Shown in pieces: positions 19,960-46,097 of a DNA stretch of 64,000 bases (the stretch's first letter is position 1; each line of letters starts with the position of its first letter). The stretch is from Sneathiellales bacterium (GTDB lineage Bacteria; Pseudomonadota; Alphaproteobacteria; JANQFL01), in assembly GCA_028277845.1 (NCBI GenBank), contig JANQFL010000094.1, positions 26,791 through 90,790 on the forward strand. Reading direction: 5' to 3'. Position numbers and translations under genes: made by a program. The notes under the pieces were generated by a model, which was not told the DNA's origin, ran no database searches, and was given only the letters and a program-made list of their open reading frames with translations.

Positions 19960-20036
19960 TGGCGGGAGTGACGGGACTCGAACCCGCGGCCTCTGGCGTG
20001 ACAGGCCAGCGCTCTAACCAACTGAGCTACACCCCC
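19960..20036 (-). tRNA. tRNA-Asp: tRNA-Asp (anticodon GTC)
   Basis: Reverse complement reads GGGGGTGTAGCTCAGTTGGTTAGAGCGCTGGCCTGTCACGCCAGAGGCCGCGGGTTCGAGTCCCGTCACTCCCGCCA. It has a cloverleaf, a GTC anticodon loop and an encoded CCA. Confidence 0.85.
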
Positions 20037-22036: not shown

Positions 22037-22112
22037 TGGTGGGCGGTGACAGGGTCGAACTGCCGACTTCCTCGGTGTAAACGAGGCGCTCTACCAGCTG
22101 AGCTAACCGCCC
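22037..22112 (-). tRNA. tRNA-Val: tRNA-Val (anticodon TAC)
   Basis: Reverse complement reads GGGCGGTTAGCTCAGCTGGTAGAGCGCCTCGTTTACACCGAGGAAGTCGGCAGTTCGACCCTGTCACCGCCCACCA. Confidence 0.85.
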
Positions 22113-22652: not shown

Positions 22653-25073
22653 TTAATGTGTCACGACCCCGTCCAGATCGGATTCCGACTTTGCGCCGGC
22701 AACCTTGTCGACGTCCTCGCCTTCGGCATCGTCCTCGACCCACTCGATCGGAACGAGCGGACGAGTCAATGCCTGGTCGAGAACCTCATCAACGGTGGAC
22801 ACGGCAACGATTTCCAAACCCCGCTTCACGTTGTCGGGAATCTCCGCCAGATCTTTTTCATTGTCTTTTGGAATCAAGACTTTCTTGATGCCGCCGCGAT
22901 GGGCCGCGAGGAGTTTTTCCTTCAGTCCGCCGATGGGCAATACGCGCCCACGCAATGTGACCTCGCCGGTCATGGCAACATCCTTACGCACGGCAATTCC
23001 GGTCAATACCGACACGATCGACGTCACCATGCCGACACCTGCGGACGGTCCGTCCTTCGGCGTCGCCCCTTCGGGCACGTGGATGTGAATGTCGCGTTTG
23101 TCGAATACGGGCGGTTTGATTCCGAAGTCGATGGAGCGGGAACGTACGTAGGACGCCGCGGCCTGAATCGATTCCTGCATGACGTCACCCAGTTTGCCGG
23201 TAATCGTCATCTTGCCCTTGCCCGGCAGCATGACGGCTTCGATGGACAGCAATTCGCCGCCCACTTCCGTCCATGCCAGACCGGTGGTTACGCCGACCAG
23301 GTCTTCGAGTTCCGCTTCCCCGAACCGGAACCGGCGCACGCCGGCATACTTTTCGAGATTGCGGCTGGTGACTTTGACCGCCTTGGTCTTGCCGGTGAGG
23401 ATTTCCTTCACCGCCTTACGGGTCAGGTTGGCCAGTTCGCGCTCCAGATTACGTACGCCGGATTCACGGGTGTAGTACCGGATCAGATCCCGTAGCGCAC
23501 CGTCCGAGATCGACCATTCGCCCGTCTTCAGACCATGCCCCTTGACCTGCTTTTCCATCAGGTGGCGTTTGGCGATTTCGACCTTTTCGTCCTCGGTGTA
23601 ACCGCTGAGACGAATGATCTCCATGCGGTCCAACAACGGCCGGGCCATGTTCATGGTGTTGGCCGTGGTCACGAACATGACGTCGGAGAGGTCGTAGTCG
23701 ACTTCGAGATAATGGTCCTGGAACGTGCCGTTCTGTTCCGGATCGAGAACCTCGAGCAAGGCCGACGAAGGATCGCCGCGGAAGTCGGCGCCCAGTTTGT
23801 CGATCTCGTCGAGCAGGAACAACGGATTGCTCGTCTTGGCCTTTTTCATGCCCTGAATGACCTTGCCGGGCATGGATCCGATATAGGTCCTGCGGTGTCC
23901 GCGCACTTCGGCCTCGTCCCGCACGCCACCCAGGGACATGCGGACGAAATTCCGGCCGGTGGCCCGGGCAATGGACTTGCCAAGGCTGGTCTTACCGACA
24001 CCGGGCGGTCCGACCAGGCAGAGAATCGGGCCTTTCAGCTTGTTGGTCCGGGTTTGCACGGCGAGATATTCGAGGATCCGCTCCTTGACCTTCTCCAGAC
24101 CGTAATGGTCCTGATCGAGGATCTTGGCCGCGTTCTTGATGTCCTTCTTGATGCGGCTGCGCTTGCTCCACGGAATACCCAGCATCCAGTCGAGGTAATT
24201 GCGCACGACGGTGGCTTCGGCCGACATCGGGCTCATGTTGCGGAGCTTCTTCAGCTCGGCCATGGCCTTTTCGTTGGCTTCCTTGCTGAGTTTGGTTTCC
24301 TTGATGCGGTCTTCCAGCTCGCCGAGTTCGTCCTTGCCTTCCTCGGTCTCGCCCAGCTCCTTCTGAATGGCCTTGAGCTGTTCGTTCAGATAGTACTCGC
24401 GCTGGGTCTTCTCCATCTGCCGCTTGACCCGGCTACGGATCTTCTTCTCGACCTGCAGGACACCGATTTCGCCTTCCATCAGCGAATAGACCTTCTCCAG
24501 GCGTTCGGTCACGCTGGGCACTTCCAGCAGTTCCTGCTTCTCGGAAATCTTCAACGCCAGATGCGAGGCAACGGTATCGGCCAGCTTGGACGGGTCGTCG
24601 ATCTGGTTGAGCGAGACCAGCACTTCCGGCGGGACCTTGCGGTTCAGCTTCACGTACTGTTCGAAATGGGCCACGACGGAGCGGCCGAGGGCTTCCAGTT
24701 CCTCGTTCTGAACATCGGCTTCCTCGATCAGCGTCGCGTTGGCCTGGAAGAAGTCCTCGTTCTCGACATAGTCGACGATACGGGCCCGGCTGACGCCTTC
24801 GATCAGCACCTTGACCGTGCCATCCGGCAGTTTGAGCAACTGCAATACGGCCGCCACGGTACCGACGCCGTAAATGTCGTCCTGCCCGGGATCGTCGTCA
24901 CTGGCGTTCTTCTGTGCGACCAGGAGAATCTGCTTGTCCTCCTTCATCACGTCCTCGAGCGCCCGGACGGACTTCTCGCGTCCGACGAAAAGCGGAACGA
25001 TCATGTGCGGGAAAACCACGATATCCCGCAAAGGCAAAATCGGAAATACAGCCGTGTTTGTGGACTCTTGCAT
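22653..25073 (-). CDS. lon: ATP-dependent Lon protease
   Basis: 806 aa with Walker [10 protein letters not shown] and the catalytic serine in PKDGPSAG. Confidence 0.95.
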
Positions 25074-29002: not shown

Positions 29003-29089
29003 TGGTGCGGGCGGAGGGACTCGAACCCCCACGACAGTGAAGTCACCAGGACCTAAACCTGGCGCGTCTACCAGTTCCGCCACGCCCGC
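29003..29089 (-). tRNA. tRNA-Leu: tRNA-Leu (anticodon TAG), long variable arm
   Basis: Reverse complement reads GCGGGCGTGGCGGAACTGGTAGACGCGCCAGGTTTAGGTCCTGGTGACTTCACTGTCGTGGGGGTTCGAGTCCCTCCGCCCGCACCA. Confidence 0.8.
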
Positions 29090-38540: not shown

Positions 38541-38749
38541 ACCTGTACTCCCAACGTCAAGATTGCGCTTCATGATAGCCGCGAGCGCTTGTCCGGCAAG
38601 CCATGGAAACCTACATGTAGAAAGAAGAATCCCGCCGCGAGAGGGCGTGTCACCGCGACGCATTGACCGGACTTGTCACTCCGTTAACCTCTTTGCTCCA
38701 CCCTGCGCAGGCGCACGCCGTGTCATCGGGGGATGGAGATCGGAAGGCC

Positions 38750-39208
38750 ATGACCCTGGTGCTGAATTCGCAGGACCGAACCGACAGCGATCCGTACCGC
38801 CCGATAACCGGGCTGGCACGGTATGCCCTGATTGCGTTCGGATTTCTCAATGTCGCGGTCGGGACCGCGGGCATATTCCTGCCGCTGTTGCCGACCACCG
38901 TATTTCTGCTGATCGCCTTGTGGGCGTTCGCCAGAAGCTCGCCGCGCTTTCACAATTGGCTTTATCACCATCCCAGACTGGGGCCACCCGTCCGCGCCTG
39001 GCACCAGCACCGGGCGATCGCCACATCGGCAAAGATTTTGGCCGTGACCGTGATGACGCTCAGTCTGGTCTACACGACTTTGTTCGTGGCCGACGATTGG
39101 GTGCTGCCGGTGATCATCGGAGTCATACTCGCCCCCATCGCCGCGTGGATCGTTACGCGACCCAATACGGCCGCTCTGGCATCGGTTCGGACCGAAGACG
39201 TCGAATAG
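38750..39208 (+). CDS. YbaN/DUF454-family inner-membrane protein
   Basis: YALIAFGFLNVAVGTAGIFLPLLPTTVFLLIALWAFARSSPRFHNWL is the DUF454 signature. The start was chosen at MTLVLNS. The track ORF begins at 38663. Confidence 0.65.
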   Translation: MTLVLNSQDRTDSDPYRPITGLARYALIAFGFLNVAVGTAGIFLPLLPTTVFLLIALWAFARSSPRFHNWLYHHPRLGPPVRAWHQHRAIATSAKILAVTVMTLSLVYTTLFVADDWVLPVIIGVILAPIAAWIVTRPNTAALASVRTEDVE

Positions 39209-39225
39209 CGAATCTTGAGGGAAAA

Positions 39226-39303
39226 TGGGGCGAGAGAGGGGAGTCGAACCCCCGACCTCCTGGACCACAACCAGGCGCTCTAACCAACTGAGCTACTCCC
39301 GCC
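39226..39303 (-). tRNA. tRNA-His: tRNA-His (anticodon GTG) with encoded G-1
   Basis: Reverse complement reads GGCGGGAGTAGCTCAGTTGGTTAGAGCGCCTGGTTGTGGTCCAGGAGGTCGGGGGTTCGACTCCCCTCTCTCGCCCCA. Confidence 0.8.
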
Positions 39304-39373: not shown

Positions 39374-40534
39374 TCAGCCGGCAAAATGCCGGGCCAGGCG
39401 TTCGATCGCCTGTTCCAGCACCTGGTCCTCCTTGCAGAAGCAGAACCGGGCGACGCCGCTGTCTCCGCCCTGGTTGTAGAAAGCGCTGACAGGAATGGCG
39501 GTGACGCCGGCTTCGACGGTGATATGACGGCAGAAATCCACGTCGGAGCCGTTGAAGCCCAGGGGCTTGAAGTCGGCATTGAGGAAATAGGTGCCATGGC
39601 AGGCCGCCGTGGCCATGCCGATGCCTTCCAGCCCCGAGCGCAGCACATCACGCTTATGCTGCATATCGGCCGCCAACGCGTCGAAATAGGCGTCATCCTT
39701 GCGCAAACCGAAGGCGACGGCCCGCTGCAGATTGGGCGGCGTCGTGAACGTCACGAACTGATGCGCCTTGGCGACGATGGAGAGAAGCCCGGCGCAAGCG
39801 GTGATGTAGCCCACCTTCCAGCCTGTCAGGGAAAAGGTTTTGCCGGCCGAACCGATACGCAGGCAGCGTTCGCGCATGCCGGGCTGGGTCATCAGCGGAA
39901 TATGGTTCCAGCCGTCGAACTTGATGTGTTCATAAACCTCGTCGCACACCGCATAGGCATCGTACCGTTCGACCAGGCCGGCGATAAAGGCGATTTCATC
40001 GGCGTCGAAGACCTTGCCGGTGGGATTCATCGGCGTGTTGAACAGGATCAACTTTGTCTTGTCGGAAAAGGCCGCTTCCAGGGCTTCGCGCGGGACGTCC
40101 CAGTTCGGCGGCTCCAAGCGCACAATTTTCGGCATCGCACCGGCCCGGCGGATGATCGGGATGTAGGAGTCATAAAGTGGCTCGAACACCACGACCTCGT
40201 CGCCCGGATTGATCAAGGCGAACAGGCAGTCCGCCAGGGCTTCGGTGGCGCCCGATGTCACCATGACTTCCGTCTGCCAATCCACATCCAAACCGTAGAA
40301 GCGCTTGTCGTGGTCGGCCACGGCCTGGCGCAATTCCGGCACGCCCAGCATGGGCGGATATTGATTGGGCTGGTCGCCCAGGCACTCGGCCGCCTTGGCG
40401 CGCACGTCCTCGGGGCCGTTGCCGCTGGGAAACCCCTGCCCCAGGTTGATGGAATTATGCTCGATCGCCAGTCGCGACATGACCTCGAACACGGTCGTGC
40501 CATAGCCGGCGAATATCTCGTTGGCCGATTTCAT
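39374..40534 (-). CDS. PLP-dependent aminotransferase (methionine/kynurenine aminotransferase YbdL-like, fold type I)
   Basis: Start MKSANEIFAGYG at 40534, PLP-lysine in SAGKTFSLTGWKVGY. The track ORF is extended by 101 aa. Confidence 0.8.
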   Translation of the reverse strand: MKSANEIFAGYGTTVFEVMSRLAIEHNSINLGQGFPSGNGPEDVRAKAAECLGDQPNQYPPMLGVPELRQAVADHDKRFYGLDVDWQTEVMVTSGATEALADCLFALINPGDEVVVFEPLYDSYIPIIRRAGAMPKIVRLEPPNWDVPREALEAAFSDKTKLILFNTPMNPTGKVFDADEIAFIAGLVERYDAYAVCDEVYEHIKFDGWNHIPLMTQPGMRERCLRIGSAGKTFSLTGWKVGYITACAGLLSIVAKAHQFVTFTTPPNLQRAVAFGLRKDDAYFDALAADMQHKRDVLRSGLEGIGMATAACHGTYFLNADFKPLGFNGSDVDFCRHITVEAGVTAIPVSAFYNQGGDSGVARFCFCKEDQVLEQAIERLARHFAG

Positions 40535-40877
40535 GCGCCGTTCCCCGAAAAAGAGCCGCAGAATGGCAAAAGCCCTTGCCGGGTGCAAGATCGCGCCGGG
40601 ATTTTCGCTAGAGCAATTCCTCCTCAGATGGAACCATTCTGTTTCTCGAGCGGCCTGCCCATCCACCAGCAAGACGGGGCAGCGCGATGTGGTGCATCGC
40701 GCAAGCCGTCTGACGCCGTGGGGGGCGGCCGCTCGGAAACCCGGAGGGACGGGCGTCTTGGCGCCAAATCCGGCGGGTGCCGTCTCGGCCATACCGCCAG
40801 GTATGGCCGCCGCCGCCAGCCTTGGCCTTGGCGCCAATACGCCCCGTCAGAATGCTTCCATCTAAAGAGGAACTGCT

Positions 40878-41954
40878 CTAGTTCATGAGACTCCCGACCG
40901 CCGTCTCGTCCCATGCGATGCCGAGGCCGGGGCCGCGCGGCGTGATGGTGCCGTCCACCACCCGCGCCGGTTCCTGCAAAATGGCCGAGGCGATGTCGAG
41001 ATGTTCGAGCCAGTGCGCCGTCGGCGTCACCGCCTGAACGTGGGCCGAGGCTTCGTCGAACAGATGGGACGAGACGGGCAGCGACGCGGCTTCCGCCTGG
41101 CCCATGGCCCGCAGCCAGCCGGTGACGCCACCGATCTTCATGATGTCGAGCATGGCGAAGTCGCTGGCCCCGGCCTGGACCGACAGGGCCATGCCTTCGG
41201 GGAACCACCAGTTCTCGCCGGTCTGGATGGGTACCGGAGAGCGTTCGCGGATGCGGGCGTGGCCCGCCAGGTCTTCCGCCGGCACCGGTTCCTCGATCCA
41301 GCCGATGTCGTACTCGGCGATGGCCTTGATGCAATCGAGGGCATCGGGAACGGTCTGCGACTGGTTGAAGTCGACCATCAGCGCCACGTCGTCGCCGATG
41401 ATGCGGCGCACCGCCGCGACGTTGGCCGCGATGTCGGCGCGGCCGCCCAGCCCCACCTTGATCTTGACCGCCTTGAAGCCCTTCTCGAGCGAGGCTTCGA
41501 GCAGGCCGGCGTCCGCCGCCGGGTCGATCATGCCGTGACTGTCGTAGGCCGGCAGCGGCCGGACCGTGCCACCCAGCAGTTCGACGACGGGCAAGCCGTG
41601 CAGTTTGCCGAGGGCGTCCCACAGGGCCATGTCGATGCCGGCCAGCGCCATGCCCACCAGGCCCTGCCGGCCCATCAGCCGGAACATGTCTTCGGTTTCG
41701 GCCATGATCGCCGCCGGCGCCACCGGACGGCCGGTCAGTTGCGGCGCCAGATTGTCGGTGAAGGCGACGACCGGCGCCATGGTCAGGGCACTGTAGGTGA
41801 AGACATAGGCGTGGCCGGTGACGCCTTCGCTGGTGGCGACGTCGAACAGCACCAGCGGTGCCGCCGGAATGGTGCCCGAGGCGGATTTGAGCGGCACCGC
41901 CAGTGGGGCGATAACGGGGCGGGCGGTGATGGCGCGGATGGTGGCGTCGGTCAT
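40878..41954 (-). CDS. Mandelate racemase/muconate lactonizing enzyme family (enolase superfamily) protein
   Basis: KIKVG (KxK), DFNQ, EEP and the other metal-ligand positions are present. The start was chosen at MTDATIRAI. The track start at 42062 is GTG. Confidence 0.75.
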   Translation of the reverse strand: MTDATIRAITARPVIAPLAVPLKSASGTIPAAPLVLFDVATSEGVTGHAYVFTYSALTMAPVVAFTDNLAPQLTGRPVAPAAIMAETEDMFRLMGRQGLVGMALAGIDMALWDALGKLHGLPVVELLGGTVRPLPAYDSHGMIDPAADAGLLEASLEKGFKAVKIKVGLGGRADIAANVAAVRRIIGDDVALMVDFNQSQTVPDALDCIKAIAEYDIGWIEEPVPAEDLAGHARIRERSPVPIQTGENWWFPEGMALSVQAGASDFAMLDIMKIGGVTGWLRAMGQAEAASLPVSSHLFDEASAHVQAVTPTAHWLEHLDIASAILQEPARVVDGTITPRGPGLGIAWDETAVGSLMN

Positions 41955-41997
41955 GGCGGCAACTCCTTGTGCTGTCCGCCGATCAGAGTACTCTTGC

Positions 41998-42039
41998 CCC
42001 GTCCCATGTATACTCACTCGTCGGTATACATGGGACGGG
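41998..42039. promoter_or_regulatory. Perfect 16-bp inverted repeat (candidate TetR operator) in the divergent intergenic region
   Basis: cccgtcccatgtatac-N10-gtatacatgggacggg. The right arm abuts the ribosome-binding site of the tetR gene. Confidence 0.6.
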
Positions 42040-42046
42040 AGAGGCC

Positions 42047-42610
42047 ATGCCGAAGCAGGCACACGACAGCAGGACCCGGATTCTCGATGCGGCCTACGAC
42101 CTGTTCTATCAGGAAGGCTTCGCCCGGGTCGGTGTCGACGAAATCGCCGACAGGGCCGGCTTCACCAAGCGCACGCTGTACTACCATTTCGACAGCAAGG
42201 ACGCCCTGCTGGCGGCGGTGCTGGACAACCGGGCCGGCCTGTCGCTCGCCCGAATCGAGCAATGGGCCAAAACCGGCGCCGCGACGACGGAGGAAGTGAT
42301 CGACAATCTGTTCACGGCCCTGAAGCGGTGGGTCGAAACGCCGCGCTGGAAGGGTTCGGGTTTCACCCGCCTGGCTATGGAACTGGCCGACCTGAAGGGC
42401 CATCCGGCCCGCACGGTCGCCCGCACCCACAAGGCCGCCATCGAAACCATGCTGACGGATATTCTGCGCGATACGGGCGCGGCGGAACCGGAAAATCTGG
42501 CGATCCAGATCGCCCTGATGTTCGAGGGCGCGCAGGTCCTGACCCTGATCCATGGCGACGTGTCCTACGTCGACCGGGCCCACGCCGCGGCCCGGCGTCT
42601 GGCGTCATGA
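42047..42610 (+). CDS. TetR/AcrR-family transcriptional regulator
   Basis: N-terminal helix-turn-helix RILDAAYDLFYQEGFARVGVDEIADRAGFTKRTLYYHF. The start was chosen at MPKQAHDS with a GGGAGAGG ribosome-binding site. The track ORF starts at 41969. Confidence 0.8.
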   Translation: MPKQAHDSRTRILDAAYDLFYQEGFARVGVDEIADRAGFTKRTLYYHFDSKDALLAAVLDNRAGLSLARIEQWAKTGAATTEEVIDNLFTALKRWVETPRWKGSGFTRLAMELADLKGHPARTVARTHKAAIETMLTDILRDTGAAEPENLAIQIALMFEGAQVLTLIHGDVSYVDRAHAAARRLAS

Positions 42611-43908
42611 CGGAGACCGCCACCCTGCCCCGGCCGGTTCGGCAGTCGGACGCCCTGTTGGCCGAGCGGGAACGCAAAGGCGTGCGCACTCTGACCTTCG
42701 TCCGGGCCGTCGCCCTCGCCATCATCGCCGTCAGCCATTGGGTGGTCGGCGCCAGCGTATTCGAAAAGGTGGCCGCCACGGCCCTGGCCGCCATCGCCGC
42801 CGTCGCCATCGTCGTGTCCGTGGTTCTGCTGGCCCGCAAACGCCATGTCGGCGCCGTCGGTGTCGCCGGCAGCCTCATCGATATCGCCATCCTCGCCGCG
42901 TTGCCGGTCATCTGGTACGTGTCCGTGGGCGGCCAGGCGGTCCCGCCGGCCTATATGCTGAAAACCCAGCTCTCCATCATGTCGCTGACCCTGGTGGCGT
43001 TGAACGCGCTGGCGCTGCGCCCGCTCTATCCCATCCTGGTCGCGGCCGGGGCCGTCGCCGTGCATGGTGCACTGATGGCCTACATCCTGGCCGACGAGCG
43101 TACCGTCGTCGGCGGCTATCTCGACGCCATCATGGGACCGGCCTTGAGCGCCGAATTCACCCTGACCGCCATGATGACGATCGGCCTGGTCGGGCTGATC
43201 ACCGGATACATGGCCTACACCGCCCGCCGCACGGTGGTGCAGGGCGTGCAGCTCGAGGTCTCCAACGCCCGGCTCGGCCGCTACTTCTCACCGGGCGTGG
43301 TCGCCCGCATCGCCGACGAGGGCGGCGGCGTCACGGGTCTGGGCGGCCGCACCCAGGACGTGGCGGTGATGTTCCTCGACATCCGCGGTTTCACGGCGAT
43401 GACCGAGAAACTGGCGCCGTCGGACGCCGTCGCCCTGCTGTCGCAGTACCACGAGCGCATGGTGCAGGAGATCTTCCGCTTCGGCGGCACCATCGACAAG
43501 TTCATCGGCGACGCCATCATGGTCACCTTCGGCACGCCCGACCCGGCAAACGACGATGCCGAACGGGCGGTGCGGGCCGGCCTGGCCATGAACCGGGCGC
43601 TCGCCGACCTCAATGCGGACCGGTCGGCAGCCGGCCAACCGGCGATCCGCCACGGTATCGGCATCCACTACGGGCCGGTCATCGCCGGCAATATCGGCAC
43701 GGAATCCCGGCTGGAATATACCGTCATCGGCGATACCGTGAACGTGGCCAGCCGGGTCGAGGACGCCTGCAAGGCGACCGGCGAGACATTCCTGATCTCG
43801 GACGCGGTCCAGGCCCGGATTCCCGCCGACATCGCCGTGCGCGCCCTGGCCGAACATCAGGTCAAGGGCCGGCAGGCCCCAGTCCGTCTGTTTGCCGTCG
43901 ACGGCTAA
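42607..43908 (+). CDS. Membrane-anchored class III adenylate cyclase (6 TM + cyclase homology domain)
   Basis: Start MTETATL overlaps the tetR stop (ATGA). Six hydrophobic helices. Cyclase-homology-domain motifs FLDIRGFT and KFIGDAIMVTFG, with the adenine-specifying Lys. The track ORF 41818..43908 is an upstream-extended artefact. Confidence 0.8.
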   Translation: MTETATLPRPVRQSDALLAERERKGVRTLTFVRAVALAIIAVSHWVVGASVFEKVAATALAAIAAVAIVVSVVLLARKRHVGAVGVAGSLIDIAILAALPVIWYVSVGGQAVPPAYMLKTQLSIMSLTLVALNALALRPLYPILVAAGAVAVHGALMAYILADERTVVGGYLDAIMGPALSAEFTLTAMMTIGLVGLITGYMAYTARRTVVQGVQLEVSNARLGRYFSPGVVARIADEGGGVTGLGGRTQDVAVMFLDIRGFTAMTEKLAPSDAVALLSQYHERMVQEIFRFGGTIDKFIGDAIMVTFGTPDPANDDAERAVRAGLAMNRALADLNADRSAAGQPAIRHGIGIHYGPVIAGNIGTESRLEYTVIGDTVNVASRVEDACKATGETFLISDAVQARIPADIAVRALAEHQVKGRQAPVRLFAVDG

Positions 43909-44015
43909 GGATTTCGGCCTGACGCCGGCGCCGGCCGCCGCCCGACCAAATCCGGCTGCTTGCCGACGATGTTTAGAACCGAGGCTTTGAAACCCACGCG
44001 AAAGAAGAGCTGCCG

Positions 44016-44774
44016 TTATATTAGTTTGTGTTCTTCCCGAAAGCGGTCGAACCATTGACGACTGGTGCCGTCCGCCATTTTTGCGACATCAGGTTTCACG
44101 CCATAGGCGGCTTCGCGATCCAGCCCAAGGAAATCCAGTACCGTGCCCAATGTCTTCTCAGGAGCGTCAGATAGCGCTTCGTAGGTAATGCGAAGTGGCT
44201 CGATCTGTTCGCGATCGAACCATGTATTCCAATCTCGATCGTAGGCCAGGAACCGCTCAAGTTGGTCATTTATCCTGTCCGCGTCATATGTCGGTGCCCG
44301 GGGGGAAGCCAGCCGTTCCAACTCCGTCCCGTCCGATGACACATGCCACAGCCCGGATTGGTCCGCTTTCACATACGAAATCGCTTGTTCCAGCTTGTCA
44401 CGCCGCGTCAAATGAATGAACGATACTCTTCCGAACACTGCGGCGAGACGCTGGGAATCTCTTGAAAGCGACGGCTGCAGGACAGCCAGTTTCTCGAGGA
44501 AAAAGTCGAAGCTGTGCCTTTGCAGTCTAAGGCCAAAGATACCGGTGTTTCCGCTCCCCTCGGCGATTGCCGCCCGGAAGACTCCATCCAGAAGCTCCCG
44601 TTCCGATCCCGTGGACGTGATCGGCAGGTCATAATAGCCGAGCCACGACTTCAACGACGGTTCATGAAAATACGAACCTGGATGTCCCGCCACACCCGTC
44701 TGAGAAAGCAGCCGGCACAGCAGCGTGCTGCCGCTGCGCGGTGACGTGCAAATGATATAAGAGTCGACGGCCAT
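44016..44774 (-). CDS. Stf0-type sulfotransferase (P-loop, PAPS-binding)
   Basis: ICTSPRSGSTLL 5'-PSB motif and LTRRD 3'-PB-like motif, 252 aa. The local GC is about 55-58% against about 68% in the flanks. Confidence 0.65.
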   Translation of the reverse strand: MAVDSYIICTSPRSGSTLLCRLLSQTGVAGHPGSYFHEPSLKSWLGYYDLPITSTGSERELLDGVFRAAIAEGSGNTGIFGLRLQRHSFDFFLEKLAVLQPSLSRDSQRLAAVFGRVSFIHLTRRDKLEQAISYVKADQSGLWHVSSDGTELERLASPRAPTYDADRINDQLERFLAYDRDWNTWFDREQIEPLRITYEALSDAPEKTLGTVLDFLGLDREAAYGVKPDVAKMADGTSRQWFDRFREEHKLI

Positions 44775-44871
44775 AAGGGGTAGGGTACAGCAATCGAAAC
44801 AGCACCGCGATGCGTTCCGAAACCGACGACTTCAACTCATTGAGCATGTCCTGATTTGCGGGACATACGAA

Positions 44872-45144
44872 CTAATCCACGTTTGCATTGTCCGGGTGCG
44901 TGTCGACGAAGTGTCTCAGGGTCATCTTCAGGCACAATACGCGCTCGATGTCCTTGCGCCGTTTCGCGTCGGCAATGTCGTCCAGGATCATGCGCTTGAT
45001 CATGCGCACGCCGTCGTCGGTGTGCACCAGATATTCGCCCAGTTCCAGCGCCGCCATCTCGGGGATGTGTTCGTGTTGCGCGATGGCGTCGATTTCGTCT
45101 TGGGTCAGTTCACACAGGCCGAGGCAGTCTTCGAACGTCAACAT
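44872..45144 (-). CDS. Hypothetical small acidic protein (90 aa)
   Basis: MLTFEDCLGLCELTQDEIDAIAQHEHIP... has no recognisable family. Confidence 0.45.
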   Translation of the reverse strand: MLTFEDCLGLCELTQDEIDAIAQHEHIPEMAALELGEYLVHTDDGVRMIKRMILDDIADAKRRKDIERVLCLKMTLRHFVDTHPDNANVD

Positions 45145-45236
45145 CGTGTCACCGCCTTTCCGCTCGTTTTCCTCCTGTCATCAGGCTGCCACGGAACGGT
45201 AACGTTTGCATTGACGGGGCTCAACGGCGGCGCCGA

Positions 45237-46097
45237 CTACAACCAGTCCTCGCGCCACGTGTCGTAGTCGGCCTGACAGGTGATGGCCTGCATCAACTCG
45301 GCCGATGCCTTGCCCGCGATGTCTTCCGGCTCGACGCCGTCGCGCAGCGCTTTCATGGTGGCGTAGACCGCCTGCACCGCCGCCGGGAAGGTCTGGTGGC
45401 CGCGCAGCAGGAAGCGGACGCCGTGGCCGGCGAGCCAGGCCGGGTCGCGCAGGTCCTTCGACCCGCCGCCCAGCAGCAGCGGCACGTTGACGTCCGCCGC
45501 GATGGTTTCAAGATCATCGCGGGATCGCACGCCGACCAGGAACAGGGCGTCGACGCCGGCGGCTTCGTAGGCCTTGCAGCGGGCGACGGCGTCTTCGACC
45601 GACGTCAGATGCGCGGCGGAGGTGCGGCCGGCGATGACCATGTCCGCGTCGCGCCGCGCGGCCAGGGCCGCCTTCATCTTGCCCACCCCTTCCTCGATGC
45701 CGAGCAGCCGCGCCTGGCCGCCCGAGCCGTAGGGCTGCGGCAGGTCGGTGTCCTCGATGGTCAGGCCGGCGATACCGGCGGCTTCCAGTTCCTCCACCGT
45801 GCGCATGACGTTCAGCGCGTTGCCGTAGCCGTGATCGGCATCGGCGAACAGCGGCAGCTCGGACGCCCGGCCCATGCGCATGGCCTGGTCGGCGAATTCG
45901 GACAGGGTCAGCACGATCAAGTCCGGCGCCGCCAATACGGCCAGCGAGGCCAGAGAACCGGCATACATGCCCATCTCGTAGCCCAAATGCTCGGCGATGC
46001 GCACCGAGGCCGGATCGTAGACCGAGGCCGGGTAGACACAGTGCTCGGTGCTGAGGATTTCACGGAAACGGCGGCGGCGGTCGGTCCAGCGCGGCAT
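45237..46097 (-). CDS. Isocitrate lyase/PEP mutase superfamily protein (oxaloacetate decarboxylase / methylisocitrate lyase-like)
   Basis: YDPASVRIAEHLGYEMGMYAGSL, FADADHGYGNA and TIEDT motifs, 286 aa. Confidence 0.7.
   Translation of the reverse strand: MPRWTDRRRRFREILSTEHCVYPASVYDPASVRIAEHLGYEMGMYAGSLASLAVLAAPDLIVLTLSEFADQAMRMGRASELPLFADADHGYGNALNVMRTVEELEAAGIAGLTIEDTDLPQPYGSGGQARLLGIEEGVGKMKAALAARRDADMVIAGRTSAAHLTSVEDAVARCKAYEAAGVDALFLVGVRSRDDLETIAADVNVPLLLGGGSKDLRDPAWLAGHGVRFLLRGHQTFPAAVQAVYATMKALRDGVEPEDIAGKASAELMQAITCQADYDTWREDWL

What the first reader, a model, noticed from the sequence alone, without database searches (positions are those of the whole stretch)
41955..43908. TetR regulator translationally coupled to a membrane adenylate cyclase, behind a perfect 16-bp palindrome
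tetR (42047-42610) and a 6-TM class III adenylate cyclase (42607-43908) overlap by ATGA and so appear to form one operon. The 92-bp divergent spacer to the enolase-superfamily/aminotransferase operon contains cccgtcccatgtatac-N10-gtatacatgggacggg (41998-42039), an ideal operator for a homodimeric TetR. A small-molecule-sensing repressor directly gating cAMP synthesis is an uncommon wiring, with the ligand possibly a product or substrate of the divergent operon.
Basis: partly seen in the sequence, partly recalled or inferred. Interest (0 to 1): 0.55.

Follow-up and report, generated by a model that had tools for sequence, protein, structure and literature searches.

The report
TetR operator; cyclase is a lineage-specific passenger
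The palindrome is the conserved binding site of a widespread, unstudied TetR-type repressor whose usual target is the neighbouring mandelate-racemase-like gene, and the adenylate cyclase fused behind the repressor gene is found only in this genome, so the 'repressor gates cAMP' wiring is physically real but probably incidental.

Summary
A perfect 16-N10-16 inverted repeat lies at 41998-42039 in the 92-bp spacer. tetR (42047-42610) overlaps a membrane class III cyclase gene (42607-43908) by ATGA.

Among 85 relatives of this TetR (48-74% identity), 77 carry a near-invariant 24-26-bp pseudo-palindrome, aTGTAAACTCACTAGTCGGTATACAt, 6-31 nt before the tetR start. The window's copy (42006-42031) scores 41 bits and is the only site in 64 kb. 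Only the outer CCCGTCCC/GGGACGGG arms are peculiar to this genome.

The conserved partner of this TetR is the divergent gene, not the cyclase. That gene is an MR-type racemase in 37 of 61 loci, or else an FAD- or FMN-dependent oxidoreductase of families that include alpha-hydroxy-acid enzymes. None of 7 cyclase-orthologue loci has an upstream tetR. No TetR relative has a cyclase directly downstream, and downstream genes vary widely.

The most likely mechanism is a ligand-released repressor of the racemase gene and of its own transcript, which here also carries the cyclase. S. meliloti CycR-CyaC is a published TetR/cyclase pairing, but it is not homologous. The finding is ordinary to modestly interesting.

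The parts
41998..42039 (.). Perfect 16-nt inverted repeat with a 10-nt centre (42 bp in all). It consists of the family operator plus genome-specific outer arms, CCCGTCCC (41998-42005) and GGGACGGG (42032-42039).
   Evidence: The outer 9-bp extension is unique among 57 non-redundant family sites, except for L102, which has a different sequence.
42006..42031 (+). Family-conserved TetR operator core, ATGTATACTCACTCGTCGGTATACAT. The family consensus is aTGTAAACTCACTAGTCGGTATACAt, a pseudo-palindrome centred on ACT|AGT.
   Evidence: It matches the consensus at 22 of 24 positions. The PWM score is 41.3 bits against a training median of 42.6, and the next unrelated site in 64 kb scores -0.1.
42047..42610 (+). 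tetR: a 187-aa TetR/AcrR-family regulator of an uncharacterised subfamily. A GGGAGAGG Shine-Dalgarno lies at 42037-44.
   Evidence: Pfam TetR_N, 9e-20. There are 1561 homologues, and the recognition helix TKRTLYYHF is almost invariant. A PDB profile hit to 3jsj covers residues 5-170.
42607..43908 (+). Membrane class IIIb adenylate cyclase, 433 aa, with about 6 TM helices plus a catalytic domain. Its start codon overlaps the tetR stop (ATGA), and it has no Shine-Dalgarno of its own.
   Evidence: D258, K298, D302, T372 and N379 are invariant, and R383 is nearly invariant (at least 90%), in 31 homologues.
40878..41954 (-). Divergent mandelate-racemase-type enolase-superfamily gene (358 aa). It is the conserved partner, and the probable primary target, of the TetR. 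An AAGGAG Shine-Dalgarno lies at 41964-41969.
   Evidence: Pfam. PDB hits are 3toy at 431 bits and P. putida mandelate racemase 1mdr at 321 bits over the full length. The KxK motif, the D/E/E metal ligands, the His-Asp dyad and the Glu317 equivalent are all aligned. The divergent pairing is seen in 39 of 59 related loci.
41985..42012 (-). Inferred promoter of the MR-type gene. The -35 is TATACA, the reverse complement of the left operator half-site (42007-42012). A 16-nt spacer follows, then the -10 TACTCT (reverse complement of 41985-41990).
   Evidence: This is inference from sequence. The family left half-site reads TTTACA on the minus strand. Conserved A/T positions lie 18-23 nt to its left, and the same TACTCT is present in the closest relative, L087. 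The generic consensus scanner did not detect it.
39374..40534 (-). Class I/II aminotransferase (PRK08912-like). The start is revised to ATG 40534.
40751..40844 (.). Long imperfect hairpin in the 343-bp gap between the MR-type gene and the aminotransferase. It may be a terminator or a processing or stabilising element.
   Evidence: 45-nt arms, 71% complementary. (141 nt, -75.5 kcal/mol, z = -4.2).

Best explanation
The palindrome is the operator of a local TetR-family repressor.

- Shown: the central 24-26 bp (42006-42031) is a motif conserved in sequence, orientation and position (6-31 nt before the tetR ATG) across a large, uncharacterised TetR subfamily.
- Shown: that subfamily's conserved neighbour is a divergently transcribed gene for a mandelate-racemase-type enzyme. 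Less often the neighbour is an FAD-linked oxidase or a member of the FMN-dependent dehydrogenase family.
- Inferred: TetR dimers bind this site. The 24-bp conserved span suggests two dimers, as with QacR. Binding would occlude the -35 of the racemase promoter, which overlaps the left half-site, and also the tetR promoter, so that tetR is autoregulated.
- Inferred: a small ligand releases the repressor. It is most likely an aryl or alkyl alpha-hydroxy or alpha-keto acid handled by the racemase.
- Shown for this genome only: the autoregulated tetR message runs straight into a 6-TM class IIIb adenylate cyclase through an ATGA overlap, with no separate ribosome-binding site.
- Inferred: the cyclase is made by termination-reinitiation, in proportion to TetR, and rises when the pathway inducer is present.

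Transcription would set only the amount of cyclase. Its activity would still depend on its own membrane sensor domain. The junction is a recent, lineage-specific gene juxtaposition rather than a conserved signalling module. The extra-perfect outer arms are a genome-specific extension. They may come from quasipalindrome correction, or they may serve as extended contacts.
For: The palindrome and the gene geometry are confirmed.

Operator motif:
- 77 of 85 evaluable TetR-relative loci have at least 16 of 24 matches to the motif. Many positions are invariant.
- These loci were collected by protein similarity, not by the motif.
- The window site scores 41.3 bits in the same orientation as the family, and it is the only site in the window.
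- The DNA-recognition helix is nearly invariant in the subfamily, which explains the invariant operator.

Divergent partner:
- An MR_MLE gene lies divergently upstream in 39 of 59 loci with enough flank.
- Other upstream partners are an FAD-linked oxidase (8 loci) and an FMN-dependent dehydrogenase (6 loci).
- The window's enzyme aligns over its full length with P. putida mandelate racemase, with all catalytic residues aligned.
- The 92-bp divergent spacer satisfies the experimentally derived '<200 bp' rule for TetR targets. A few TetR-family genes are known with both a divergent and a co-transcribed neighbour (PMC3511530).

Cyclase:
- It has no Shine-Dalgarno sequence.
- No promoter-like site lies inside tetR.
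- In cyclase-orthologue loci the gene is preceded by an upstream gap of 13 to about 460 bp. That gap is absent here.
Against: - No transcript data exist. A weak promoter inside tetR cannot be excluded, and the consensus scanner is blind to non-sigma-70 and alphaproteobacterial promoters.
- The tetR promoter itself could not be located.
- Neither the ligand nor the repressor (as opposed to activator) role is tested for any member of this subfamily.
- The perfect 9-bp outer extension (p about 1e-5 by chance) is not explained by the family motif. It could have a separate function.
- The sample of relatives is the first 600 pattern matches of a metagenome scan and contains duplicates. Percentages are therefore approximate.
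Confidence: 0.65

Rival explanations
1. The TetR exists chiefly to gate cAMP synthesis: it is a dedicated small-molecule-to-cAMP switch, and the cyclase is its main regulated output.
For: The ATGA overlap and the lack of a cyclase Shine-Dalgarno sequence. The operator sits directly upstream of the bicistron.
Against: The pairing is not conserved. None of 7 cyclase-orthologue contexts has a tetR. No cyclase follows tetR directly in any sampled TetR relative, including the closest ones at 74% identity, which have a convergent 90-aa gene instead. The subfamily's conserved partner is the divergent enzyme gene.
Confidence: 0.1
2. This is a protein-complex model by analogy with S. meliloti CycR-CyaC. 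The TetR docks physically on the cyclase. Translational coupling serves to make the two in fixed stoichiometry. This would link metabolite sensing and cAMP output at the protein level.
For: Klein et al. 2023 (PMC10463352) show that a TetR-type regulator encoded next to the membrane cyclase CyaC binds it with a KD of about 100 nM. That TetR is the RutR-type pathway regulator, and it too is divergent from catabolic genes, so the topology is parallel. Translational coupling is typical of complex partners (general knowledge).
Against: There is no homology beyond the generic domains. The window TetR and CycR share only the HTH (38% over 55 aa), and their C-terminal domains differ (TetR_C_3 in CycR). 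The two cyclases share only the catalytic domain (32% over 186 aa), and CyaC has a different anchor plus a Fer2 domain. In the S. meliloti record the two genes are convergent, not co-transcribed. This TetR subfamily normally lives without any cyclase.
Confidence: 0.1
3. The adjacency is incidental and there is no shared regulation. The cyclase would be transcribed from its own promoter inside the 3' part of tetR, and the overlap would be a by-product of a deletion or rearrangement.
For: In other genomes the cyclase neighbourhoods are unrelated to one another and most show a clear upstream gap, consistent with the gene being independently expressed there. High-GC genomes often have short overlaps.
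Against: No promoter-like site lies in 42047-42610. There is no Shine-Dalgarno sequence before the cyclase ATG, so independent translation initiation would be inefficient. Both proteins are full length, with a precise ATGA junction.
Confidence: 0.15
4. The 42-bp perfect palindrome acts mainly as a nucleic-acid structure rather than as a protein-binding site. It could be an RNA hairpin that masks the tetR Shine-Dalgarno sequence, a 5' stabiliser of either divergent mRNA, or a DNA cruciform.
For: The hairpin is very stable: -40.7 kcal/mol on the + strand (z = -6.9) and -46.4 kcal/mol on the - strand (z = -5.9). Its base extends into the tetR Shine-Dalgarno. A second family member, L102, has 9 of 10 complementary outer pairs with a different sequence, which hints at selection or mutation acting on structure.
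Against: In the family as a whole the flanks are no more complementary than shuffled controls (mean 2.93 against 2.87 of 10). The central sequence, including its asymmetric positions, is conserved as sequence, which is the signature of a protein-binding site. Whether the hairpin is transcribed at all depends on unmapped start sites. No Rfam family matches there.
Confidence: 0.1

Closest known systems
Classical TetR-family local repressors with a divergent target under 200 bp away (TetR/tetA, QacR/qacA, and the enzyme-linked TetR-family regulators of Ahn, Cuthbertson & Nodwell 2012, PMC3511530)
   Same: It has the N-terminal TetR_N HTH and is about 190 aa long. The divergent neighbour is 92 bp away. 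A pseudo-palindromic operator lies in the shared spacer, close to the regulator's own start, which implies autoregulation. The target is an enzyme, as for 60% of predicted TetR-family targets. The 24-26-bp conserved span resembles the long QacR-type operators bound by two dimers (my knowledge; not tested).
   Different: The subfamily is uncharacterised. The best PDB relative is a structural-genomics entry, 3jsj, and no NCBIfam equivalog reaches its cutoff. Its operator is unusually invariant across about 50%-identical proteins. In this genome the regulator also has a co-directional overlapping gene. Ahn et al. found that combination in only a handful of TetR-family genes per genome.
S. meliloti CycR (SMc01819, a RutR-type TetR) and the membrane adenylate cyclase CyaC (Klein et al. 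2023, PMC10463352)
   Same: A pathway-type TetR regulator sits between a divergent catabolic gene cluster and a 6-TM class III (Lys/Thr, IIIb-type) adenylate cyclase gene. A functional link between the two proteins has been shown there: direct binding and a proposed CyaC-CycR-cAMP-Clr complex.
   Different: The modules are not homologous. The two TetRs share only the HTH region, and their ligand domains differ (TetR_C_3/YcdC in CycR). CyaC has a different membrane anchor, reported as dihaem-B, plus a Fer2 domain, and it is 557 aa against 433 aa here. In the S. meliloti record the genes are convergent, and in strain Ak57 they are separated by two IS elements. Here they overlap co-directionally.
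Class IIIb bacterial adenylate cyclases (Spirulina CyaC 1wc1, P. aeruginosa CyaB 3r5g, the Synechocystis Cya2-derived domain 2w01/6fht) and 6-TM cyclases such as M. tuberculosis Rv1625c (7yzk)
   Same: The catalytic domain is most similar to these (E 1e-24 to 1e-35). The metal-binding Asp pair, the Lys298/Thr372 substrate pair and Asn379/Arg383 are all present (residue roles from my knowledge of class III cyclases). The predicted topology is six helices with a cytoplasmic catalytic domain.
   Different: The membrane domain matches no Pfam family. It has its own conserved motifs (LPVIWYxSVGG..VPPAYMLKTQ and NALAxRPLYP). Its signal is unknown.
Mandelate pathway regulation by the LysR-type MdlR (TFBMiner study, PMC10204090)
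   Same: The probable regulated gene here is a close homologue of mandelate racemase. The alternative partner families of the TetR subfamily include alpha-hydroxy-acid oxidoreductases, which fits the chemistry of mandelate and other 2-hydroxy acids.
   Different: The characterised mandelate sensor is a LysR activator that responds to S-mandelate and phenylglyoxylate. No TetR-type regulator of an MR-type gene was found in the literature searches.

Membership tests
TetR/AcrR family transcriptional regulator | N-terminal three-helix HTH DNA-binding domain (Pfam TetR_N) | tested here: met
   PF00440 at E = 9.2e-20, residues 12-58, covering the full model.
TetR/AcrR family transcriptional regulator | All-alpha C-terminal ligand-binding and dimerisation domain in a protein of about 190-220 aa | tested here: inconclusive
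   TetR_C_13_2 scores 22.7 bits, below its cutoff of 27. Profile matches to solved TetR structures span residues 5-170 (3jsj, 4e-26). No structure was predicted.
TetR/AcrR family transcriptional regulator | Binds a (pseudo)palindromic operator near its own gene or the divergent target | not testable with these tools
   Binding was not assayed. Indirect support is strong: a conserved 24-26-bp pseudo-palindrome lies upstream of 77 of 85 relatives, and the window site scores 41.3 bits.
TetR/AcrR family transcriptional regulator | Divergent neighbour under 200 bp away, a predictor of direct regulation (Ahn et al. 2012) | tested here: met
   The spacer is 92 bp. The rule comes from PMC3511530. The divergent MR_MLE partner is conserved in 39 of 59 loci.
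tetR-cyclase operon as a conserved module | Overlapping stop and start codons, with no independent ribosome-binding site on the distal gene | tested here: met
   ATGA at 42607-42610. The 25 nt upstream contain no GGAGG-like element.
tetR-cyclase operon as a conserved module | The gene pair is conserved in relatives of either gene | tested here: not met
   None of 7 cyclase-orthologue contexts has it. No co-directional upstream tetR occurs in 86 cyclase-family loci. No cyclase follows tetR directly in any sampled TetR-relative locus; the 62 downstream ORFs fall into 49 clusters and are mostly convergent.
tetR-cyclase operon as a conserved module | A single transcript spans both genes | not testable with these tools
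   No expression data are available. The scanner finds no promoter-like site inside tetR, which is weak evidence.
Class III (IIIb) adenylate cyclase | Cyclase homology domain with two metal-binding Asp, a substrate-specifying Lys plus Thr (IIIb), and transition-state Asn and Arg | tested here: met
   PF00211 at 7e-26. D258, K298, D302, T372 and N379 are invariant and R383 nearly invariant in 31 homologues. The nearest solved domains are IIIb cyclases. Residue roles are assigned from my knowledge of mammalian AC2 and CyaC numbering.
Class III (IIIb) adenylate cyclase | Six-helix membrane anchor | tested here: inconclusive
   Six Kyte-Doolittle peaks lie at about 34-52, 57-75, 84-102, 122-140, 143-161 and 180-198. 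No dedicated topology predictor or structure was used.
Mandelate racemase subgroup of the enolase superfamily (the divergent gene) | KxK motif, Asp/Glu/Glu metal ligands, His-Asp dyad and the Glu317 equivalent | tested here: met
   The alignment to P. putida MR (1mdr, 321 bits) shows VKIKVG, VDFNQS, IEEP, GENW, LDIMK, SSHLF and WLEHLD aligned to the MR catalytic positions. Substrate specificity was not tested, and the NCBIfam equivalogs fall below their cutoffs.
S. meliloti CycR-CyaC signalling module | RutR/YcdC-type TetR (TetR_C_3 C-terminal domain) | tested here: not met
   CycR/RutR has PF08362 at 2e-52. The window TetR aligns with it only over the HTH (38% over 55 aa).
S. meliloti CycR-CyaC signalling module | CyaC-type cyclase (dihaem 6-TM anchor plus a [2Fe-2S] Fer2 domain) | tested here: not met
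   Only the catalytic domains align (32% over 186 aa). The window protein has no Fer2 domain. No His in the membrane region is invariant among the 31 aligned homologues.
S. meliloti CycR-CyaC signalling module | Direct TetR-cyclase protein binding | not testable with these tools
   This needs two-hybrid or SPR assays, as in PMC10463352.

The most novel reading that the evidence does not exclude
In this lineage a metabolite-specific TetR, probably sensing an alpha-hydroxy or alpha-keto acid, has captured a membrane adenylate cyclase into its own autoregulated, translationally coupled message. Availability of one catabolic substrate would then be converted into cAMP-signalling capacity. TetR and cyclase might also form a physical complex, as the non-homologous CycR-CyaC pair does in S. 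meliloti. Two further observations bear on this. An unrelated relative (L159) has a PAS-PAS-cyclase placed directly behind the TetR-controlled racemase gene. S. meliloti has the parallel RutR/CycR-CyaC topology. Together these would point to repeated, independent recruitment of class III cyclases into TetR regulons as a way to give individual cyclases pathway-specific inputs in bacteria that carry dozens of them.
Probability: 0.12. Interest if true: 0.55.

Novelty: new member of a known kind. Interest (0 to 1): 0.3.

Why it matters
For the window itself the result is mostly clarifying. The striking palindrome is an ordinary TetR operator, and the racemase-like gene is its probable primary target. 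The cyclase link is a single-genome juxtaposition.

Two things have some wider value. First, the comparative data define, without any experiment, the operator of a very large unstudied TetR subfamily, with consensus TGTAAACTCACTAGTCGGTATACA. More than 1500 homologues were detected. The data also tie that subfamily to mandelate-racemase-type, FAD-linked-oxidase and FMN-dependent-dehydrogenase genes. That is a ready-made candidate repressor/operator pair for biosensors of 2-hydroxy or 2-oxo acids. The only characterised mandelate sensor is a LysR protein that does not respond to the R-enantiomer (PMC10204090).

Second, bacteria with tens of class III cyclases face an unsolved specificity problem. 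Cases where a cyclase is wired to a pathway-specific regulator are natural entry points to it. S. meliloti CycR-CyaC is the studied example, and this window and L159 may be further ones.

Tried and rejected
- Genome-collection scan with the cyclase alignment. Only distant paralogues (29-50% identity) came back, so it gave no orthologue contexts. I used it only to show that none of those 80 loci has a co-directional upstream tetR.
- Exact look-up of the window's own cyclase and cluster-name look-ups. It is probably an alphaproteobacterial MAG, judging from named homologues and plasmid hits.
- Megablast of 40000-46000 against plasmids: no match.
- Consensus promoter and terminator scans. They found nothing in the spacer or in tetR. 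The promoter proposed for the racemase gene is my own reading and falls below that tool's threshold.
- Rfam over the whole window. It found only four tRNAs, with no riboswitch or known RNA at the palindrome or in the 343-bp gap.
- The GC-rich palindrome just after the cyclase stop (43914-43945) as a terminator. It folds no better than shuffles (z = 0.33).
- The idea that shared contig lengths (P0094/P0201 and P0076/P0174) meant further tetR-cyclase pairs. I rejected it. P0201 sits next to MR_MLE with no cyclase nearby, and P0076 has no tetR within 5 kb.
- The cyclase-domain hit near tetR in L162. It is an unrelated SAM-cyclase-ATPase protein 2 kb away, beyond two opposite-strand genes, so I rejected it as linked.
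- Annotated plasmid cyclase paralogues (Skermanella, R. leguminosarum, S. meliloti pSymA). None has an adjacent TetR.
- The S. meliloti and Azospirillum plasmid TetR hits (40-48% identity). They pair with a crotonase, so they belong to a neighbouring subfamily and were not used.
- Literature searches for a TetR regulating a mandelate racemase, or a TetR-cyclase operon. Apart from CycR-CyaC they found nothing.
Full report
**Observation**

The sequence at the given coordinates is as described. Arms CCCGTCCCATGTATAC (41998-42013) and GTATACATGGGACGGG (42024-42039) are perfectly complementary, with 10 nt between them. This is the only perfect inverted repeat of 14 nt or more with 40 nt or less of spacing in the 64-kb window. 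My arithmetic gives a chance expectation below 1e-3.

The repeat lies in the 92-bp spacer between a minus-strand gene (ATG at 41954, AAGGAG Shine-Dalgarno) and tetR (ATG at 42047, GGGAGAGG Shine-Dalgarno). The tetR stop and the next gene's ATG overlap as ATGA at 42607-42610.

Pfam confirms TetR_N, the class III cyclase catalytic domain, MR_MLE N and C domains, and a class I/II aminotransferase. Both start codons fit the N-termini of homologues.

**The cyclase**

- D258, K298, D302, T372 and N379 are invariant, and R383 is nearly invariant, across 31 homologues.
- By my knowledge of class III cyclases these are the metal pair, the Lys/Thr substrate pair of class IIIb, and the transition-state Asn/Arg.
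- The closest solved catalytic domains are IIIb enzymes.
- Six hydrophobic peaks precede the catalytic domain.
- The membrane part matches no Pfam family but has strongly conserved motifs of its own.

**What the palindrome is**

I collected relatives of the TetR by protein similarity only, in two ways:
- Contigs encoding the closest database relatives (74% and 60% identity).
- A metagenome scan with a TetR alignment (80 loci, 48-57% identity).

Printing the DNA upstream of each tetR start revealed a nearly invariant motif, aTGTAAACTCACTAGTCGGTATACAt. Of 85 evaluable loci, 77 match at least 16 of 24 positions, and most match 21-24. Many columns are invariant. The motif always has the same orientation and ends 6-31 nt before the tetR ATG.

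The motif is a pseudo-palindrome, symmetric at 18 of 24 positions by my count, and centred on ACT|AGT. The window sequence ATGTATACTCACTCGTCGGTATACAT (42006-42031) matches 22 of 24 positions. A weight matrix built from 57 non-redundant sites scores it at 41.3 bits, against a training median of 42.6. The same site read on the opposite strand scores 20.7 bits, and the next unrelated position in the window scores -0.1.

The inner 7-9 nt of each 'arm' are the conserved outer half-sites. Only the outermost 8 bp on each side (CCCGTCCC/GGGACGGG) are specific to this genome.

The recognition helix (TKRTLYYHF) is almost invariant in the subfamily, which accounts for the invariant site. A conserved protein-type site of this kind, in a 92-bp divergent spacer, is what the experimentally derived TetR '<200 bp' rule predicts for a direct target (PMC3511530).

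**What the TetR normally controls**

In relatives with at least 400 nt of upstream sequence, 39 of 59 have a divergent MR_MLE gene 82-151 bp away in all but one case. Clustering the upstream divergent ORFs gives the following:

| Upstream partner | ORFs (of 61) |
|---|---|
| MR_MLE | 37 |
| FAD-linked oxidase (FAD_binding_4 / FAD-oxidase_C) | 8 |
| FMN-dependent dehydrogenase (FMN_dh) | 6 |
| YCII | 2 |
| Singletons | 8 |

A complete 5.4-Mb genome shows the same MR_MLE/tetR pair.

The window's MR_MLE protein aligns end to end with P. putida mandelate racemase (321 bits). The KxK motif, the three metal ligands, the His-Asp dyad and the Glu317 equivalent are all in place.

From my knowledge, the FAD-oxidase and FMN_dh families include D- and L-2-hydroxy-acid dehydrogenases such as S-mandelate dehydrogenase. 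I therefore infer a common alpha-hydroxy/alpha-keto-acid theme, and a ligand of that class. This is inference; nothing about the ligand was tested.

On the minus strand, the family's left half-site reads TTTACA, a near-consensus -35. About 16 nt further on there are conserved A/T positions compatible with a -10. In the window this gives TATACA-N16-TACTCT, and the closest relative has the same TACTCT. I therefore propose that the operator overlaps the -35 of the racemase promoter. The generic scanner does not call this promoter. I could not locate the tetR promoter.

**Is the cyclase part of the system?**

Physically it is. The genes overlap by 4 bp. The 25 nt before the cyclase ATG contain no Shine-Dalgarno-like element. 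No promoter-like site lies inside tetR. Co-transcription with termination-reinitiation is the simplest reading.

Evolutionarily it is not.
- Seven contexts of cyclase orthologues (58-67% identity) have unrelated upstream genes and no tetR.
- None of 86 cyclase-family loci has a co-directional upstream tetR.
- Three annotated plasmid paralogues lack one as well.
- Downstream of tetR in relatives, 62 ORFs fall into 49 unrelated clusters, mostly convergent.
- The 74%-identical relatives have a convergent 90-aa gene there.

The junction is therefore unique to this genome as far as the databases reach. The database contains no closer relative of either protein.

One independent hint of a link exists. 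In L159 a PAS-PAS-cyclase gene follows the TetR-associated MR_MLE gene after 55 nt on the same strand. Class III cyclases are abundant in these bacteria (28 in S. meliloti, PMC10463352). One such case among about 87 loci is about what chance predicts, by my rough estimate.

**Comparison with what is known**

The system is a typical TetR-family local repressor with a divergent enzyme target. It is unusual only in also having a co-directional overlapping gene. Ahn et al. found that combination in a few TetR-family genes per Streptomyces genome.

The closest published TetR/cyclase pairing is S. meliloti CycR (SMc01819) and CyaC. There the TetR-type protein binds the membrane cyclase with a KD of about 100 nM and is proposed to form a complex with cAMP-Clr.

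I located that locus in record CP090106.1. The TetR there is annotated as RutR. It is divergent from dihydropyrimidinase and hydrolase genes and lies beside cyaC. However, the two genes are convergent, and in that strain they are separated by two IS elements.

Direct comparison shows the two pairs are not homologous as modules:
- The TetRs share only the HTH (38% over 55 aa), and CycR has a TetR_C_3 domain.
- The cyclases share only the catalytic domain (32% over 186 aa).
- CyaC has a Fer2 domain and a different anchor.

The parallel in topology keeps a protein-level link possible, but it gives no evidence for one here.

**The outer arms**

The 9-bp perfect extension on each side is not a family feature. 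Flanks in the family are no more complementary than in mismatched controls (2.93 against 2.87 of 10). Only one other locus, L102, shows a comparable extension (9 of 10), and its sequence is different.

The window also has TGTATAC in both half-sites, whereas the family's left half is usually TGTAAAC. This makes the arms perfect. Possible explanations are mutational 'quasipalindrome correction' (my knowledge; untested), extended contacts for a second dimer, or a structural role.

As RNA the element would be a -41 to -46 kcal/mol hairpin whose base reaches the tetR Shine-Dalgarno. Whether it is transcribed is unknown.

**Corrections to the surroundings**

The aminotransferase gene most likely starts at 40534. 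That leaves 343 bp after the racemase gene's stop. The gap contains a long hairpin at 40751-40844, folding at -75.5 kcal/mol with z = -4.2. A tRNA-His gene follows the aminotransferase directly. The aminotransferase is not a conserved neighbour in the family. The 'enolase/aminotransferase operon' is therefore uncertain.

**Verdict**

The operator interpretation is well supported by phylogenetic footprinting. The racemase-type gene, not the cyclase, is the conserved target. The tetR-cyclase coupling is real in sequence but lineage-specific and of unproven significance.

I classify the finding as a new member of a known kind, with interest of about 0.3. The more novel reading is repeated recruitment of cyclases into TetR regulons, possibly with protein complexes. 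It is not excluded, and I rate it at about 12%.

Noticed in passing
window 40751-40844 (gap 40535-40877): A long imperfect inverted repeat (45-nt arms, 71% complementary) sits just downstream of the MR-type gene's stop, inside a 343-bp non-coding gap before the aminotransferase. As RNA on the minus strand, 141 nt folds at -75.5 kcal/mol (z = -4.2). It may be a terminator, a mRNA stabiliser or a repeat element. No Rfam family matches.
   Followed up: partly
window 39374-40837 (-): The maximal aminotransferase ORF (487 aa, TTG start) is about 100 codons too long. The NCBIfam PRK08912 alignment starts at ORF residue 103, and ATG 40534 (MKSANEIF...) is the likely start.
   Followed up: yes
window 39226-39302 (-); also 19960-20036, 22037-22112 and 29003-29089 (-), and 24570-24662 (+): A tRNA-His gene lies immediately downstream of the aminotransferase and overlaps the Pfam-less 181-aa ORF 38723-39268, which is therefore probably spurious. 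Further tRNA genes are Asp, Val and Leu. ARAGORN alone calls a tRNA-Thr at 24570-24662, which Rfam did not report.
   Followed up: partly
L094-L173, L087-L093, L174-L175 (upstream of each tetR): A large uncharacterised TetR subfamily shares one nearly invariant 24-26-bp operator (TGTAAACTCACTAGTCGGTATACA). Members pair divergently with MR-type racemase, FAD-linked oxidase or FMN-dependent dehydrogenase genes. This is a candidate 2-hydroxy/2-oxo-acid repressor-operator set that could be mined for biosensors.
   Followed up: partly
L159 112-1743 (-): A 543-aa PAS-PAS-class III cyclase gene starts 55 nt after the stop of the TetR-associated MR_MLE gene, on the same strand, with a GGGAGG ribosome-binding site. 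This is a second, architecturally different cyclase next to this TetR regulon. It may be chance.
   Followed up: partly
L102, operator flanks: One other family member has an extended palindrome around the operator (ccgggccgaa...tacggcccgg, 9 of 10 outer pairs). Its sequence differs from the window's CCCGTCCC/GGGACGGG. Such sporadic extension suggests a mutational process such as quasipalindrome correction, or a structural role.
   Followed up: no
L184 (CP090106.1 2724412-2734963): The PLSDB record CP090106.1 is labelled 'S. meliloti plasmid pSymB' but is 3.72 Mb long. It carries genes with chromosomal SMc designations (rutR/cycR and cyaC) and looks like a mislabelled chromosome. In this strain two IS4-family elements lie between rutR (CycR) and cyaC, and the two genes are convergent.
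   Followed up: partly
window 44016-46097 (-): Downstream of the cyclase, on the opposite strand, lie an Stf0-type sulfotransferase (Pfam 5e-88) and a PEP-mutase/methylisocitrate-lyase-family gene. Their relation to the cyclase or the TetR was not examined.
   Followed up: no
window 42607-43260 (cyclase residues 85-145): The cyclase membrane domain has highly conserved loop and helix motifs across homologues down to 40% identity (D92, W103, K119, R138, Y141 and P142 are invariant; LPVIWYxSVGG..VPPAYMLKTQ; NALAxRPLYP). It matches no Pfam family. This suggests a specific but unknown sensory function for this 6-TM anchor.
   Followed up: no
L113/L114 1605-2051 (+): In one TetR relative a 148-aa ORF with no Pfam match starts at a TTG that overlaps the tetR stop (TTGA). 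This is another possible co-directional coupled gene, but the weak start codon makes it doubtful.
   Followed up: partly
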